A stretch of 62,297 nt of DNA from Escherichia coli (GTDB lineage Bacteria; Pseudomonadota; Gammaproteobacteria; Enterobacterales; Enterobacteriaceae). Positions 3,001 through 12,000 of the stretch are shown in pieces. The position numbers were made by a program. The stretch lies in the NCBI RefSeq assembly GCF_024298765.1, contig NZ_CP101213.1. The stretch is one strand, 5' to 3'. The first letter of the stretch is position 1, and every line of letters begins with the position of its first letter.

Positions 3001-6000
3001 ACGCCGCGTTCTGGTCATGCCAGAAAATCCTGTGGTGAATGAAAAGCCGCAGGAAGTACAAAAATCAGCAGTTAATGAAAACAAGAAAGTACAGAAGAAA
3101 GATGCTGTAGCAGAGAAAACACGTAAAAAGCAGCCTCAGCCCTGGTATTTGAAAAAACAAATCACTTTTCCCCCAAAATATCCGAAAGAATATTTTGAAA
3201 AGTGTTTCAATAAAGTTCGTGCTGTTTTTCCTGAACTATGGACAGACGAAAAAAAGAACTTGCCCCTGAAAAGCGGGATTCTCCAGGACGTTGAGAAATA
3301 CCTGGCGGATAACCCGGATGTGGATCTGACGATTGAAGAGTGGAATTGTGCGGTTCAGGTGATGACGTTCCGGTGGCAATATCTTCAGAATTGTACTGTA
3401 CCAGGCGCAACACGTTACGACCTTTACGGGAAACCTGCTGGTACAGTAAAAAAAGCACACGCAACTTATGCGCAACTGGTTCTCGATGCCCGTAAGAAAG
3501 CCAGCGAGAAGAAACAATTAAAACGTAAGGGATAAAGCCCCGAAGGGCTTTATCATTTCAGCCTGGCTGACTGTAGAATCCAGTGATTTTTTCCGTTTTC
3601 GTCCAGGCCGTGTTCGTAAGCTGCAAGAGCCGCTTTCATTATTGCTGTTTTTGTCTGGCCTGTTCGCAGTGCTTCCCGTTCCAGAATATCTTCGTAAACG
3701 TCCCCAAGCCGGACATTGGTCACTTTAGTTGCTCCCGATTTTTTGCGGGTAGCTTCATTGATGAATCGGGCTGTGTCTGCATTGGTTTGTTCTGTTTTTT
3801 GTCCTGGTATTACCGGAGTTTTCAAGTCAAGAGCCATTATATCACCTTTCGTGTGTTACATTAGCTTTACTGTGTAAAGCTAATGATGTAAAGCGATCGT
3901 ATTACATCCATTAGGGATTGATGCCTAACTCTTGCGCCAAAAGCTCTATTTGTGCTTTAGCTGTAGAAAGGCTGGATGCGCGACGTACATCATGAACGCC
4001 AGCGCCTTCATTACAGGCCGCTTCAAAAATATCTAAATCTGAAATACGTGTACGAAGTGGCTGTATCCACACCGGGTTCTCCCGGAGTAACTTGTCGAGA
4101 TCAATCGCTGCTTTTCTGTGGCGTGGTTTTGTCGTGTTAATTCTCGTGAAAAGTACCCAGGGTTGCAGGTCTGGATTGATCTGTTGAGCTGTGCGAACTT
4201 TTTCTGTTACATGAGTCAGCGTTTCTGCTTCGAAATCTGAAGACGGCTTAACGAGAGTAAGCAGAGTGTCAGCTACAGTTAAGGCGCTGCGAAATTCCTT
4301 GCTGTCATGACCTGGACAGTCAATGATCAGCACTTCACATATTTTTTTCAGGCGCTTAATGACTTCTGATACATCGCCATACTCTTCATAAACAGGAACC
4401 GGTAATAAGCCATTCTGCTTTCTTTTTTCGTTCCAGCTAAGAATATCATTGTTTTTATCGGTCTTCAGAATGATGACCGTTCGTGAATTATTTACCAGAT
4501 AAGAAGCCAGGTTTGTTGCTGTGGTGCTTTTTCCTACACCGCCTTTATCTGATGCGACAAGTAATGCTCTCCCCATAGAAACCTCGGATATACAGTGTAA
4601 AGGTTTATTTGTCTTTACATTGTATTCATTATAGTTACGTTGTAAAGATGTTTGTGTCTTTACAATGTAATTGCTTTTGTGCTTTACATTGTGTGTATGT
4701 TACAGGGTAACTTTTCAGGATGCGATTTTGCCTGGTGTGTTGTTGCGCCCGTAGCTCGCTGACGCTCACACGCGCAGTACAGCGCCCCGCCCTGCTGCAA
4801 TGCACCAGGACGGCGTAAACTCGCTGGCGCTCGCGCTAACTGCGGCATTCTGCGGCGCAAATCAGCATTATCATGGCCTGTTGGTCTGTCCTGGCTTTGC
4901 AGGGCGAAGGGATGGCCCTGTGCATCCTGGTATGTTCGTCAGCGGCTGCGCCGCGCTTCGGGGCGATGTGGCCCCGCTGCTCCCTGGTATTTTCTTTCGC
5001 CCCTTCTATCCGCTGGCGCGGATTAAAAAATGAGCAAACCATCAAATAACTTGCTGTTTTCAGGCAATAAATCTTGATAATACATCTAAATAGATGTATT
5101 ATTGTTTCATCGAAAGGGGATTGGCTCCTTTCCTTCTTAAGTCCAAACGGACAGGAGATTTAAAATGAAAACATTGACTTTTAATAACGGCACTGTTTCT
5201 GTTGGCGATGTGTTTGTATCTTCCTGGGGATATGAGCAAACGAACGTTAATTTCTACCAGGTTATTTCTGTTCATGGCAAAAAAACAGTAACTGTTCAGG
5301 AGATTCGCGCTTCAGTTCATCGGACTCATTCAATGAGCGGATATAAGACTCCATTACTTAATGATTTCTGTGGTGAGCCATTAAAACGGCGAGTGCGTGA
5401 TTATTACAGTTCGCCAGCAATTGAAATTGAGGAATTCGAAACAGCATATAAAGGATCACCGGAAGAAAAACACGAGTTCACATCATACTACTAAGAAAAT
5501 AGTTGCAGGGGGTATCCCCTGCAACCATGTTAAAAATGTTAATAGTAGTATTTACCCAGGGGGTTTTAGTATGAATGATGGGGTAAAACTCCGTCCTTCA
5601 GGGCGTGGAGAATGCCGGGCTAATGCAGCAATGTAATGTTGCGCCCGTAGCTCGCTGACGCTCACACACGCAGTACAGCGCCGCGCTTCGGGGCGATGTG
5701 GCCCCGCTGTTCCCTGGTATTTCCTTTCGCCCCTTCTATCCGCTGACGCGGATTAAGAAACGAGCAAATCATCAAGTAAATTGCTGTTTTCAGGAAATAA
5801 ATCTTGATAATACATCTAAATAGATGTATTATTGTTTCATCGAAAGGGGATTGGCTCCTTTCCTTCTTAAGTCCAAACGGACAGGAGATTTAAAATGAAT
5901 ATCCAGGAAGCATTAAACGTTTTTGGATTATCCGGCGAATTAACTGAAAAAGATATCAAAGCAGCATACAGAAAAGCCGCTTTAAAATATCATCCAGATC

Positions 6001-9000: not shown

Positions 9001-12000
9001 AAGGAAATGCAGGGATCAAGAGTGCGATTTTTCAATGCTGAAATTAATCACACAATATTAATGCATCGCCCACATCCAGAAAGTTATATTAAAGGTGGAA
9101 CGCTGAAAGCTATTAAACAGAACTTGAAAGAGGCTGGGGTTTTATGAAACATTTAAAATATAAAGGATATTTAGGTACGGTTGAGCCGGATTTTGAAAAT
9201 AATATCCTGTATGGAAAGCTGGCATTTATTCGTGATCTGGTGACTTATGAGGCAGAAACATTGGCTGACCTGGAACGGGAATTTAAAACATCGGTTGATT
9301 TGTATTTACAGTCCTGTGTGGAGGACGGAAAGGAGCCTGACACGCCCTTTAAAGGTGTGTTTAACGTCAGGCTTGATCCAGAGCTGCATCGTCGGGTCGC
9401 TGAAATGGCGATGGAAGAAGATTTGTCGCTGAATGCCTTTGTCAATAAGGCACTGGAAAAAGAAGTCAGTCATCATCGCGCAGGGGCTTAATCGCCCCTT
9501 TTTGTTGCTCGCAGGCGTTGATGTTTCTTGGTATTACGGTGTAGTGTGTTGTATTTACAAACAATGCTTTACGGTGTATTACGATGCATACTCTTTAATT
9601 GCTTGCAATCTCTTTTCACGTTCGTTGCTTTGTTCAGCTTTTTTCAATTCACTGAATATGTACTCTTCATCTTTACCCGTGAGTTTTGAACCGGAGAGCA
9701 AGCGATTAACAACTTTACGTCGAATTGCAGGGTAATCTTTGGTTTTATCGAGTATGGACAATATGCGGTCACTACTAAGAATCTGGCCTTTCCCTGATTC
9801 CACATAATGTAGAAAAAATGCGATTGCGGACACGCCCAAAAGCACTGTAAGGACGGCTACACCATCAAGACGAAACTTTGATATAAAGGAATACGCGACC
9901 ACTCCAATAATTGCTAAGCAGAGACATAAATAAATTAAGAGGTTTTTGTTGCGTTGTTTTTTTTGTGCGCGATCATGATCATCTATGATTGCCAGTATCT
10001 TTTCTGGAGTTGCTTGAGCCATTTTTTTTCCTTATCAGGGAGACGGAGTGTTCAATCATCTGGCTTTACAATGTAAAGCTGTGTTTGTCTTTACGGTGTA
10101 AATAATGAGATGTGCAGTTAAAAGTGTCAATCAGGTATCATATAGTAAAACACTATATGATTTTTCTGTAATAGGCTTAAAAAATTCTCGCTTACATTGT
10201 AAAGGTCTTTGTGTCTTTACAGTGCACCACGTTGTAAATCACTGCCTTCTGTGGAGATAATCATGTTTTTTTCTGTTGGTGTCGAAACACCGAAAGATGA
10301 TCAGACTGCATACGGCATCACTGTTCCGGCTTTTGATTGTTTTGGTTTTGGATGTGTTTCTGCGGCTGATTCTCAGGCAGAAATACCCGCTATGGCGCGT
10401 GAAGCGATATTGGCAATCGTGGAAGATATGGTATTAAGCGGTGCTTATTCTGTTGATGATATTCATGATGAAGGGTGTTTGACTTATTCGGATCACTCCA
10501 ATTATAAGCACTGTGATAGCTGGTTTTTGGTTGATGTCGATTTAACATTAGACATGCCGTAGTCCGGCTATCGGGTCATGAGGACGCTGAAGAATATCGC
10601 AGGCATATATTTACAGTGTAAAGGTGTTTCTGTCTTTACATTGTAAGGCTTATTGAATACTACACTGTAGTGCAATGTATGTGTTTTTATGACCTATCCC
10701 CGCGTTGTGCGGGGATTTTTTTTGATAGCTAACCGCTCGCCGCAGTCTAGCGACCGAGCATAGCGAGCGAGTGACGAGGAAGCGGAAGATCCACCGTTGC
10801 CAGGAGAAAAGCAGGTACGCACTATGCATTCTGCCCTAGTGATGCTTTCACAAACCACGCGGCCTGAACTATTACGCCATGAATCCAGCGCAAATCGGCA
10901 TCACGATTTTCTTTTTTCATTTTTTCGCCACTTAAAGCCTTGCTTACGTGACTTTTTACCAGATTTTCGTGTAATTCTTTTGCTTCTTCAATTGTGAAAC
11001 CACCAGGCAAATTTGGCGCTTCTGCTTCCAGTGATGCCAGAGCAATTTCATAAGCCCGGCGCTCAATATTGTCTCGCACGTCCAGGCTGCCGATTCGCTC
11101 CCTGATTTCTTTAATTAGTTTCTTGTCGTCGTCGGTAAATGTTGTCATCTCACTCTCCTTTGGCGTCAATGTTTACAGCCTGGCAAGCCTCTTTGAGCAC
11201 CCAGTCAATAGCGTCTTTCCATGCCCCTGTTTCGACGGGAGGATTCGTGTGCTTTACCTGATCGTAGAAGCGTACTGCGTTTACCAGTCCTCTTGTTGGT
11301 GCTGCTATCGCAGGTGGTAAGTTGTAGAGTTCCTGAATTTCATAGTTCGGCCTGTCGTTGCAGTCTTCTTTTGTCGGCACGTATTTCCAGTCACCAACCC
11401 ACGTTTTACCCTGAGAGTCCGTAACGTCTTTTTTCACGTAACGATACCTCCATGCAACAACCCCAGCTTCCAGCGATGCCAGTGCGATTTCATAAGCCCG
11501 GCGTTCAATATTGTCTCGCACGTCCAAGCTGCCGATTCGCTCTCTGATTTCTTTAATCAGTCCCTTGTCGTCGTCGGTAAAAGTTGTCATTAGTGACTCC
11601 TTTTCATATCTATGGTTTTCTTGAATCAATTTCGTCTAGTTTGAGTTTTATATTTTGCTGGTCTGATTTTGGTAATTTTCTCATGCTCTCTTCAGTTATT
11701 TTTTTCATATCAAGAAAAGCTCTTGCATAGAAGCGCAGGCTTGCCTCTTTTTCATGTTGTGCAACATACCAGGTTGCGCCAGAAAATGCCGCAGACAGGC
11801 ATAATGTGCACAAGGCACAAATTGCAATGGCTGTTCTTGTACTGAAGGGTTTTACAGCCTTAGATAATGACTTCAACTTTTCTTCATATAATTTGTTGTT
11901 TTTTTCCTGGTTGCGTTTAATTCCAGATATGAGTTCAATAATATCATCTGTTAATTTTTCTTTTACCTCAACACTTGTTTCTTTTAGATCGTTTTTTCCC

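What the first reader, a model, noticed from the sequence alone, without database searches (positions are those of the whole stretch)
3553..10640. A TGTAAAG-N10-CTTTACA operator dispersed at seven sites from the partition locus through the leading region
The same 7-bp inverted repeat with a ~10-bp spacer occurs in a cluster directly upstream of parA (4596-4688), between parA and the RHH gene (3865-3894), and again at 7590, 8705, 10064, 10198 and 10617. The two 24-mers at 4596 and 7590 are identical. This looks like a plasmid-wide regulon or a set of centromere-like sites bound by one dimeric protein. The ParG-like RHH protein is the obvious candidate, which would link partition to control of leading-region genes.
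Basis: seen in the sequence. Interest (0 to 1): 0.55.

Follow-up and report, generated by a model that had tools for sequence, protein, structure and literature searches.

The report
Partition-protein binding sites spread into leading region
An IncI2 colistin-resistance plasmid carries eight non-random clusters of one short repeat, which comparison with related plasmids ties to the small DNA-binding protein encoded next to its partition ATPase, so partition and some early-transfer genes probably share one regulator; this is an ordinary design in an uncharacterised protein family.

Summary
The window is a whole IncI2 mcr-1 plasmid. TGTAAAG-N10-CTTTACA occurs six times exactly and once with one mismatch (0 expected). 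All copies lie at 4.6-10.6 kb, and a differently arranged cluster sits between parA and the RHH gene.

The repeat is asymmetric. The full unit is the 10-mer TGTAAAGACA, present 8 times on the minus strand and never on the plus strand.

Comparative evidence points to the RHH protein (3553-3837) as the binder:
- Eleven lineages of this ParA-RHH cassette each carry arrays of a lineage-specific TGTA...ACA repeat upstream of parA and in the parA-RHH spacer.
- One complete plasmid has the arrays but no XRE homologue. Another has none of the HicA/HicB proteins.
- In diverged IncI2 plasmids the arms are conserved while spacers and flanks change.

Two sites cover the predicted parA promoter, and one covers the start of the orf9579 promoter. 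The other sites do not overlap predicted promoters. The repeated leading-region promoters carry a different palindrome.

My reading is a type Ib-like centromere/auto-operator plus secondary sites in the leading region, working like omega of pSM19035 or Reg576. Binding and regulation are inferred, not shown. I classify it as a new member of a known kind.

The parts
3553..3837 (-). Gene for a 94-aa ribbon-helix-helix protein, the proposed binder of the repeat and partner of ParA
   Evidence: ORF. Pfam RHH_1 matches residues 40-74 weakly (E 0.0049). The AlphaFold model has a disordered N-terminal tail, an extended segment at 31-45, then helices at 46-59, 63-76 and 80-92. The best Foldseek hits are RHH proteins; CopG 1ea4 has target TM 0.81 and rmsd 1.5 A over 42 residues, though E-values are weak. 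Homologues keep an N-terminal LKLKxP tail.
3911..4576 (-). parA, a 221-aa Walker-type partition ATPase without an N-terminal DNA-binding domain
   Evidence: NCBIfam ParA_partition gives 101 bits, below the cutoff of 180. It is 57-75% identical to the ATPase that precedes every RHH homologue examined.
3865..3893 (.). Repeat cluster between parA and the RHH gene: CTTTACt-g-TGTAAAG-N7-TGTAAAG
   Evidence: A repeat cluster in this same intergenic position is present in all 11 lineages of the cassette.
4596..4619 (.). Site 1 (TGTAAAG-N10-CTTTACA), covering the predicted start of the parA transcript
   Evidence: Exact match. The -10 hexamer of the predicted parA promoter is at 4624-4619, so the site begins at about +1.
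4619..4646 (-). Predicted sigma-70 parA promoter: TTTACA, 16-nt spacer, TACAAT
   Evidence: Consensus scan, 10 of 12 positions. The -35 hexamer is the left arm of site 2. This is a consensus match only, not a mapped start site.
4641..4664 (.). Site 2, whose left arm is the -35 of the parA promoter
4682..4688 (+). Extra half-site CTTTACA, ending the array upstream of parA
7590..7613 (.). Site 3, identical to site 1 and part of a segmental duplication
   Evidence: In one search, repeat family D3 shows 7571-7618 is 94% identical to 4577-4624.
7628..7668 (+). Further full 10-mer TGTCTTTACA (7628-7637) and half-site CTTTACA (7662-7668)
8706..8737 (.). Site 4 with an extra left half-site: CTTTACG-t-TGTAAAG-N10-CTTTACA. 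It lies about 100 bp upstream of the consensus hicA promoter (8835-8863).
   Evidence: The orthologous site is kept in diverged IncI2 plasmids with a different spacer.
10064..10103 (.). Site 5: CTTTACA-a-TGTAAAG-N10-CTTTACG-g-TGTAAAT. It covers the -10 hexamer and the start of the predicted minus-strand promoter of orf9579-10022.
   Evidence: One-mismatch match at 10072-10095. The promoter is TTGACA, 17-nt spacer, CATTAT at 10130-10102. The site is conserved in L010 and L011 but has lost its right arm to a 13-bp deletion in L012.
10198..10221 (.). Site 6, upstream of the HicB-like gene (10263-10562)
   Evidence: In the alignment with three diverged IncI2 plasmids the arms and the TGT are invariant, while the spacer and both flanks diverge.
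10610..10640 (.). Site 7 with a flanking TTTACA. It lies between the HicB-like stop codon and a terminator at 10696-10716.
   Evidence: No equivalent site was found in L010-L012, so it is specific to this lineage.

Best explanation
The repeat is the cognate DNA site of the 94-aa ribbon-helix-helix protein encoded directly downstream of parA. Together with ParA it forms a type Ib-like partition cassette.

The full unit is the oriented 10-mer TGTAAAGACA. In IncI2 it is paired with an inverted 7-mer 10 bp away.

The array at 4596-4688 covers the -35 hexamer and the transcript start of the parA promoter. Together with the cluster between parA and the RHH gene, it most likely serves as both centromere and auto-operator of the par operon.

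The five further sites (7590, 8706, 10064, 10198, 10617) are secondary binding sites in the leading region. At least the one at 10064-10103 is placed to repress a promoter, that of orf9579. The others may repress, block read-through or add to the partition complex.

Because parA and the RHH gene lie on the strand opposite to the leading-region genes, the protein would be made only after complementary-strand synthesis. It would then shut these sites down, in the manner of zygotic induction.

Shown here: the sites, their non-randomness, their orientation, their conservation, and their co-occurrence with the cassette. Inferred: binding by the RHH, repression, centromere function and timing.
For: - The motif is far above chance and confined to the par and leading-region segment.
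- The predicted parA promoter is overlapped at its -35 and +1 by sites 2 and 1. The orf9579 promoter is overlapped at its -10 and +1 by site 5.
- RHH homologues of 40-58% identity always follow a ParA of 57-75% identity.
- Every such locus has arrays of a lineage-specific repeat upstream of parA and in the parA-RHH spacer:
  - TGTAAAGACA in IncI2, IncX3, IncX5 and an Edwardsiella plasmid;
  - TGTAAATACA in a Salmonella Berta plasmid and a Klebsiella aerogenes plasmid;
  - GTACATACA in L016;
  - TGTGCGCACA in L018;
  - related forms in L019-L021.
- The beta-strand differs between the two best-sampled motif groups: K[VL]xN[VF]RL versus SRTYRL.
- ParA and the RHH are the only window proteins with homologues in both complete motif-bearing plasmids compared. 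The S. Berta plasmid lacks the XRE and DnaJ module. The IncX5 plasmid lacks HicA, HicB and the HicB-like protein.
- The IncX3 arrays mix direct and inverted heptads at roughly 11-bp spacing, as expected for RHH centromere-binding proteins.
- Secondary sites outside par also exist upstream of the DnaJ operon in IncX3 and IncX5, and next to GC-rich repeats in the Edwardsiella plasmid.
- In diverged IncI2 plasmids the arms and TGT are conserved while spacers and flanks vary.
- The protein has an RHH fold and a lysine-rich flexible N-terminal tail.
Against: - There is no binding, expression or stability experiment.
- IncX1 plasmids encode an RHH homologue with the same beta-strand (RLLNFRL) yet have no TGTAAAG sites in 34.5 kb. 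Specificity therefore cannot be read from the beta-strand alone.
- Beta-strand and motif variant do not map one-to-one across the family.
- Sites 3, 4 and 7 do not overlap any predicted promoter.
- The repeated leading-region promoters carry a different palindrome.
- Site 3 arrived by duplication, site 5 is partly deleted in one IncI2 plasmid and site 7 is lineage-specific.
- Deletion of this gene in pHNSHP45 had little effect on growth and fitness (PMC8053102).
- The RHH assignment rests on weak statistics: Pfam E 0.0049 and Foldseek E 0.6.
Confidence: 0.68

Rival explanations
1. Only the par-proximal repeats (3865-4688) are functional as centromere and auto-operator. The dispersed copies are passengers carried along by segmental duplication and recombination among the GC-rich repeats, with no regulatory or partition role.
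For: - Site 3 lies in a duplicated block that includes a relic of the parA 5'UTR.
- Sites 1-4 each sit immediately upstream of a GC-rich repeat or its remnant.
- Sites 3, 4 and 7 overlap no predicted promoter.
- Site 7 is lineage-specific and site 5 is partly deleted in L012.
Against: - Sites 5, 6 and 7 share no flanking similarity with the par region.
- In diverged IncI2 plasmids the arms stay intact while the spacer and flanks change, a footprint of selection.
- Independent backbones (IncX3, IncX5, the Edwardsiella plasmid) also carry extra-par sites.
- Site 5 sits exactly on a promoter start.
Confidence: 0.15
2. The palindrome is the operator of a different plasmid regulator: the 80-aa XRE/MqsA-like HTH protein (7304-7546) or a HicB antitoxin.
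For: - A 24-bp inverted repeat suits a dimeric HTH protein.
- Site 3 lies just downstream of the XRE gene.
- Sites 4 and 6 lie upstream of hicA and hicB-type genes.
- XRE homologues co-occur with the motif in IncX3, IncX5 and the Edwardsiella plasmid.
Against: - The complete S. Berta plasmid has repeat arrays at par but no XRE homologue at E below 0.01. The complete IncX5 plasmid has arrays but none of the HicA/HicB proteins.
- IncX1 has an XRE homologue of the same identity (48%) but no sites.
- In L011 the XRE is only 56% identical while the arms are unchanged and the RHH is 100% identical.
- Arrays in relatives contain many direct repeats at about 11-bp spacing, which does not fit a fixed-geometry HTH dimer.
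- The XRE overlaps the upstream ORF by 4 nt and matches MqsA-type antitoxin models, suggesting a local toxin-antitoxin role.
Confidence: 0.07
3. The inverted repeats act as hairpins in the transferred single strand, for example as part of single-strand promoters or priming signals next to the GC-rich elements, or as RNA terminators, rather than as duplex protein-binding sites.
For: - All seven copies have the same strand polarity.
- Four lie beside GC-rich repeats that fold strongly as ssDNA (z -4.7).
- The minus strand of each site can form a stem of 7 to 13 pairs.
- The terminator scan flagged several of them.
Against: - The hairpins are weak, at -4.0 to -7.6 kcal/mol, and one is no better than shuffled sequence.
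- No consistent T-run follows the stems.
- The polarity is explained by the asymmetric 10-mer unit, which is shared with the IncX3 and IncX5 arrays.
- The homologous arrays in relatives are largely direct repeats that cannot form hairpins.
- The motif changes together with the RHH lineage.
Confidence: 0.06
4. The sites bind a host nucleoid or transcription factor rather than a plasmid protein.
For: The repeat is AT-rich and palindromic, and the sites are intergenic. No direct evidence was found.
Against: - The motif variant differs between plasmids that live in the same Enterobacterales hosts, and tracks the ParA-RHH lineage.
- The repeat is absent from the other 52 kb of the plasmid.
Confidence: 0.02

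Closest known systems
Omega (ParB) with delta (ParA) of pSM19035, inc18 plasmids of Firmicutes
   Same: A small RHH protein partners a Walker ParA. It binds arrays of 7-bp heptads in direct and inverted orientation at several dispersed promoter regions, which serve both as operators of a small regulon and as centromeres. This summary rests on established knowledge and on abstracts PMC3074150 and PMC9499535 listed. The 7-bp unit, the mixed orientations and the multi-locus distribution seen here match it.
   Different: - There is no detectable sequence similarity.
- The heptad sequence differs.
- The host is Gram-negative.
- In IncI2 the heptads are paired at a 10-bp gap rather than contiguous.
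- The targets here lie in the conjugative leading region rather than at copy-control and toxin-antitoxin promoters.
Type Ib partition loci with RHH centromere-binding proteins (TP228 ParF-ParG-parH; pB171 par2 ParA-ParB-parC1/parC2)
   Same: The gene order is a small ParA followed by a small RHH gene. Iterated short repeats upstream of parA overlap its promoter, giving a combined centromere and auto-operator. The protein has a flexible basic N-terminal tail. A second repeat cluster lies beside the CBP gene, reminiscent of the two parC sites of pB171. The comparison with these systems rests on established knowledge and on the abstract of PMC3130281.
   Different: - This is not a sequence homologue of ParG. 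IncX1 and IncX5 plasmids carry a true ParG with ACTC-type boxes as well as a homologue of this RHH.
- The repeat unit is a 10-mer, TGTAAAGACA.
- Additional sites lie up to 6 kb away, in the leading region.
Reg576, the RHH repressor of establishment genes of Bacillus plasmid p576
   Same: An RHH dimer binds paired heptamers at several promoters of genes needed early after transfer and at its own promoter, giving transient expression in the new host (PMC6294495). Reg576 also appears among the fold matches (rank 4).
   Different: - Reg576 is not a partition protein and has no ParA partner.
- Its operator is a dual TTATCCC.
- Repression by the protein studied here is not demonstrated, and only two promoters are clearly overlapped.
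KorB of IncP-1 (RK2/RP4)
   Same: A partition centromere-binding protein whose sites are scattered over the plasmid and which doubles as a global repressor. This rests on established knowledge.
   Different: KorB is a large HTH ParB of type Ia with 12 sites around the whole plasmid. Here the protein is a 94-aa RHH and the sites are confined to about 7 kb.

Membership tests
Type Ib (small ParA plus RHH CBP) partition system | Small Walker-type ParA lacking an N-terminal DNA-binding domain | tested here: met
   The protein is 221 aa. Its best NCBIfam hit is ParA_partition at 101 bits, below the curated cutoff of 180. Homologues carry the Pfam CbiA and ParA domains.
Type Ib (small ParA plus RHH CBP) partition system | Gene immediately downstream encodes a small ribbon-helix-helix protein | tested here: met
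   Pfam RHH_1 E 0.0049. The AlphaFold model shows an extended segment followed by two helices. Top Foldseek hits are CopG, Arc, NikA and other RHH proteins, with weak E-values. The support is consistent but statistically weak.
Type Ib (small ParA plus RHH CBP) partition system | Iterated short repeats upstream of parA overlapping its promoter (centromere and operator) | tested here: met
   Sites 1 and 2 plus a half-site at 4596-4688 overlap the predicted -35 and +1. The same architecture is seen in 11 lineages.
Type Ib (small ParA plus RHH CBP) partition system | The CBP binds the repeats, stimulates the ParA ATPase, and the cassette stabilises a plasmid | not testable with these tools
   This needs EMSA or footprinting, ATPase assays and stability assays. 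The literature calls the locus only a 'putative parA partitioning system' (PMC8053102).
ParG family (TP228) | Sequence homology to ParG | tested here: not met
   No PDB chain, ParG included, matches the protein or the 31-sequence profile at E up to 10, apart from a CopG-family chain at E 0.19. Separate genes annotated ParG coexist with this family in IncX1 and IncX5.
ParG family (TP228) | Centromere made of ACTC-type tetramer boxes | tested here: not met
   The repeats here are TGTAAAG(ACA). ACTC-type boxes are seen instead upstream of the ParF-like parA of IncX1.
Omega-type global regulator and CBP (pSM19035) | Sequence homology to omega and the WATCACW heptad | tested here: not met
   There is no sequence match to any solved structure, and the heptad differs. 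The resemblance is functional only.
Omega-type global regulator and CBP (pSM19035) | The same heptad arrays at several separate promoter regions | tested here: inconclusive
   There are eight loci, but only two (parA, orf9579) clearly overlap predicted promoters.
XRE/MqsA-type antitoxin operator | The operator co-occurs with the HTH antitoxin gene | tested here: not met
   Arrays are present in a complete plasmid with no XRE homologue. An XRE homologue is present in IncX1, which has no sites.
Frpo/ssi single-strand promoter elements | Sequence similarity to known Frpo, or a long stable hairpin presenting -35 and -10 hexamers | tested here: not met
   The palindromes form only weak hairpins of 7-13 pairs. 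The adjacent GC-rich repeat shows no blastn similarity to the F leading region. Whether that repeat is a new ssi-type element was not resolved.

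The most novel reading that the evidence does not exclude
The RHH protein is a dual-function factor conserved across the epidemic IncI2 (mcr-1) and IncX3/IncX5 (NDM, OXA) plasmids. In this reading it is both the centromere-binding partner of ParA and a timer for establishment genes. Its gene is on the strand that cannot be transcribed from the incoming single strand, so it would appear only after complementary-strand synthesis. It would then occupy oriented TGTAAAGACA sites placed beside candidate single-strand-promoter elements and leading-region promoters. 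That would switch the plasmid from 'entry' to 'maintenance' expression and at the same time assemble the partition complex over a 7-kb domain.
Probability: 0.25. Interest if true: 0.6.

Novelty: new member of a known kind. Interest (0 to 1): 0.42.

Why it matters
IncI2 and IncX3 plasmids are the main vehicles of mcr-1 and blaNDM. Their partition locus is only 'putative' in the literature, and the RHH gene is annotated as hypothetical or CopG-family. The work here defines three things:
- the cognate repeat;
- a small protein family (48 clusters at 50% identity among 1.84 billion proteins), which has no dedicated Pfam or NCBIfam family and no solved homologue;
- secondary sites in the leading region.

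This gives a concrete, testable model for how these plasmids couple segregation to expression of some early-entry genes. It also identifies a DNA sequence that could be used to titrate the protein, that is, for incompatibility or curing. The logic itself (omega, KorB, Reg576) is already known, so the advance is incremental.

Tried and rejected
- Reading the CTTTACA arm as the -35 of plus-strand promoters for the leading genes: no acceptable -10 hexamer lies at 16-18 nt for any site (by eye). Only the minus-strand parA promoter uses an arm as its -35.
- Testing the GC-rich repeat against the F-plasmid leading region for Frpo homology: no blastn hit.
- Word-indexed protein search: it returned only near-identical proteins. 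The exhaustive profile search was needed to find the family.
- Sequence search of the PDB with the protein and with the profile: nothing useful.
- Looking for the target of the IncX1 RHH homologue: no TGTAAAG-type sites were found. A different palindrome lies upstream of two leading-region genes, but nothing links it to the RHH.
- Literature searches for the motif and for IncI2/IncX partition or operator work: nothing on this motif. These searches cover open-access papers only.
- Fetching pB171 to compare its par2 ParB directly: the record is not in the collection.
- Deriving a simple recognition code from beta-strand residue to motif base: rejected, because lineages with NFRL strands use several different motif variants.

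Full report
**What the window is.** The 62,297-bp window is essentially a complete IncI2 mcr-1 plasmid. Region 3400-11000 is 100% identical to many plasmids of about 61 kb, including CP085520.1 (IncI2, MOBP, MPF_T). The annotation gives repA; hok/sok; a ProQ/FinO gene (PcnR); a 'CopG family' gene at 3553-3837 (-); a P-loop ATPase at 3911-4576 (-); then plus-strand genes from 5165 to 10562 (a DnaJ-domain protein, hypotheticals, an MqsA/XRE-like HTH, hicAB, a HicB-like gene); and mobC with the relaxase at 13858 onward. The plus-strand genes point toward the presumed oriT near 13.5-13.8 kb. This is the orientation reported for leading-region genes (PMC11541004). Calling this segment the leading region is therefore reasonable, but I did not verify it directly.

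**Checking the observation.**
- TGTAAAG-N10-CTTTACA occurs exactly at 4596, 4641, 7590, 8714, 10198 and 10617, against 0 in 100 shuffles. It occurs with one mismatch at 10072.
- Nineteen of the 25 CTTTACA half-sites lie in 3873-10640. The rest of the plasmid is at or below chance.
- The locus between parA and the RHH gene (3865-3893) is real but arranged differently: CTTTACt-g-TGTAAAG-N7-TGTAAAG.
- The identity of the 24-mers at 4596 and 7590 reflects a segmental duplication. It comprises 4577-4624 / 7571-7618 (94%) plus a GC-rich block, 4721-5020 / 7673-7972 (98%).
- The copy at 7571-7589 is a decayed parA 5'UTR, which shows how that site arrived.

**Anatomy of the site.**
- The palindrome extends outward to TTACA-n-TGTAAAG-N10-CTTTACA-n-TGTAA.
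- The site is not symmetric. The spacer ends in TGT in all seven copies, so the right half is a full 10-mer.
- TGTCTTTACA occurs 8 times exactly on the plus strand. Its reverse complement never occurs there.
- All sites therefore have the same polarity, which is the direction of parA transcription.

**Relation to promoters (consensus scan only).**
- The best parA promoter candidate is TTTACA, 16 nt, TACAAT at 4646-4619 (-). Its -35 is the left arm of site 2, and the transcript would start inside site 1.
- A minus-strand promoter (TTGACA, 17 nt, CATTAT; 10130-10102) for orf9579-10022 has site 5 over its -10 and +1.
- Site 6 lies between a weak promoter candidate and the HicB-like start codon.
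- Site 4 is about 100 bp upstream of a perfect consensus hicA promoter.
- Sites 1-3 lie about 400 bp upstream of three repeated promoters (5074, 5804, 8026). Each of those carries its own perfect palindrome, ATACATCT-AAAT-AGATGTAT, in the spacer.
- Site 7 lies between a stop codon and a terminator.
- The arrangement is thus classical for auto-regulation of par and convincing for one further promoter. It is not convincing for the bulk of the leading-region genes.

**Who binds: the protein.**
- The 94-aa protein is a weak Pfam RHH_1 match.
- Its model has a disordered N-terminus, an extended segment and the two RHH helices plus a C-terminal helix.
- Its best structural matches are CopG, Arc, NikA, PutA, AmrZ and Reg576, with weak E-values.
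- It has no sequence-detectable solved relative and no NCBIfam family.

**Who binds: the family and its repeats.**
- tblastn finds homologues of 40-58% identity in about 1,800 plasmids, mostly IncX3.
- An exhaustive profile search finds only 48 clusters at 50% identity among 1.84 billion proteins.
- In every lineage examined the RHH gene follows a ParA of 57-75% identity. The lineages are IncI2, IncX3, IncX5, an Edwardsiella plasmid, a S. Berta plasmid, a K. aerogenes plasmid and five other contigs.
- In each, both the region upstream of parA and the parA-RHH spacer are packed with a lineage-specific repeat: TGTAAAGACA, TGTAAATACA, GTACATACA, TGTGCGCACA and related forms.
- IncX3 has more than 15 heptads in both orientations, often 11 bp apart.
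- The beta-strand differs between the TGTAAAG group (K[VL]xN[VF]RL) and the TGTAAAT group (SRTYRL). Across the whole family there is no simple code.

**Excluding other binders.**
- The complete S. Berta plasmid has the arrays but no homologue of the XRE or the DnaJ module.
- The complete IncX5 plasmid has arrays but no homologue of HicA, HicB or the HicB-like protein.
- Only ParA and the RHH are common to both.
- In IncI2 variant L011 the XRE is 56% identical, while the RHH is 100% identical and the arms are unchanged.
- Family members share an N-terminal LKLKxP tail. Such a tail is typical of the ParA-stimulating peptides of small centromere-binding proteins (established knowledge for ParG). 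I infer that role here; it is not tested.

**Are the dispersed sites meaningful?**

For:
- Sites 5-7 share no flanks with the par region.
- In three diverged IncI2 plasmids the arms and TGT are invariant, while spacers (GTCTTTGTGT, ATTGAGCTGT, ATCTATCTGT) and flanks diverge.
- IncX3 and IncX5 have sites just upstream of the DnaJ-operon promoter. The Edwardsiella plasmid has two arrays beside GC-rich repeats.

Against:
- Site 3 is a duplication product.
- Site 5 has lost an arm in L012.
- Site 7 is lineage-specific.
- The published deletion of this gene (orf00050) had little effect on growth and fitness (PMC8053102). That assay would not detect de-repression of a few small genes.

**A caveat from IncX1.** IncX1 plasmids carry an RHH homologue with the same beta-strand but a different N-terminus. 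It is the third gene after a ParF-like ParA and a true ParG, whose ACTC-type boxes lie upstream. Those plasmids have no TGTAAAG sites anywhere. Specificity therefore depends on more than the strand residues, or that copy has a different role.

**Rivals.**
- A hairpin function in the transferred strand is possible but weak. Energies are -4.0 to -7.6 kcal/mol, and one site is no better than shuffled sequence. The arrays in relatives are largely direct repeats.
- A host factor is unlikely, because the motif tracks the plasmid lineage.
- A purely passenger status for the dispersed sites remains the most serious alternative (about 0.15).

**Comparison with known systems.**
- The system works like omega/delta of pSM19035: an RHH centromere-binding protein, heptads in mixed orientation, several loci, and dual operator-centromere use.
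- It also resembles TP228 ParG and pB171 ParB in having a promoter-overlapping centromere.
- It has a possible Reg576-like role at establishment genes (PMC6294495).
- It is not a sequence member of any of those families. The membership tests for ParG and omega were not met.
- No paper in the searchable library mentions this motif or characterises this par family.

**Verdict.** Assigning the sites to the RHH protein is well supported by comparative genomics (about 0.75-0.8). The centromere/auto-operator role at par is likely. Regulation of leading-region genes is plausible for one or two promoters and unproven for the rest. I classify it as a new member of a known kind, of moderate interest.

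Noticed in passing
window 4721-5050, 5632-5899, 7673-8000, remnant 8755-8815: GC-rich repeats of 330-450 bp (60% GC against 43% for the plasmid) precede four plus-strand leading-region genes. The minus strand folds strongly as ssDNA (z -4.7). They show no blastn similarity to the F leading region and are about 91% identical to a sequence in 33-kb plasmids of IncX4 size. They are candidate ssi/Frpo-like single-strand promoter or priming elements of a different sequence family.
   Followed up: partly
window 5080-5099, 5810-5829, 8032-8051: A perfect palindrome, ATACATCT-AAAT-AGATGTAT, fills the spacer of three repeated sigma-70-like promoters (TTGATA, 17 nt, TATTAT). The IncX3 DnaJ promoter has a different palindrome (ACCATCA-TTT-GATGGT) at the same place. 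This looks like a second, separate operator, possibly for the XRE protein, or a promoter hairpin.
   Followed up: partly
window 10593-10723 (+): A sub-threshold Rfam GcvB match (29.4 bits, gathering 42, E 0.003) runs from site 7 to a strong terminator at 10696-10716. It may be a small RNA gene or simply the 3'UTR of the HicB-like gene.
   Followed up: no
window 7053-7546: orf7053 (84 aa) and the XRE/MqsA-like gene (80 aa) overlap by 4 nt, as in a toxin-antitoxin pair. Diverged IncI2 plasmids carry a second or alternative pair (42% and 56-63% identity) at the equivalent position.
   Followed up: partly
L005 (IncX1 CP074235.1) 7201-8431, 1325-1343, 2237-2255: In IncX1 the RHH homologue is the third gene after ParA and ParG. 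It has a different N-terminus, and the plasmid has no TGTAAAG sites. A different palindrome, TATACCTGCA-TTT-GCAGGTATA, lies upstream of two leading-region genes.
   Followed up: partly
window 13541-13697: Tandem-like 12-bp repeats (GTGTGGGT-type, six copies in register) lie just upstream of mobC, in the presumed oriT region.
   Followed up: no
window 11024-11161 and 11466-11603: A 138-bp direct repeat (88% identity) gives two adjacent minus-strand ORFs (10822-11148 and 11150-11473/11629) nearly identical N-termini.
   Followed up: no
window 2294-2630: An Rfam sok antitoxin RNA hit (98 bits) lies beside the hok gene. A second, weak sok-like match lies just upstream (23.7 bits).
   Followed up: no
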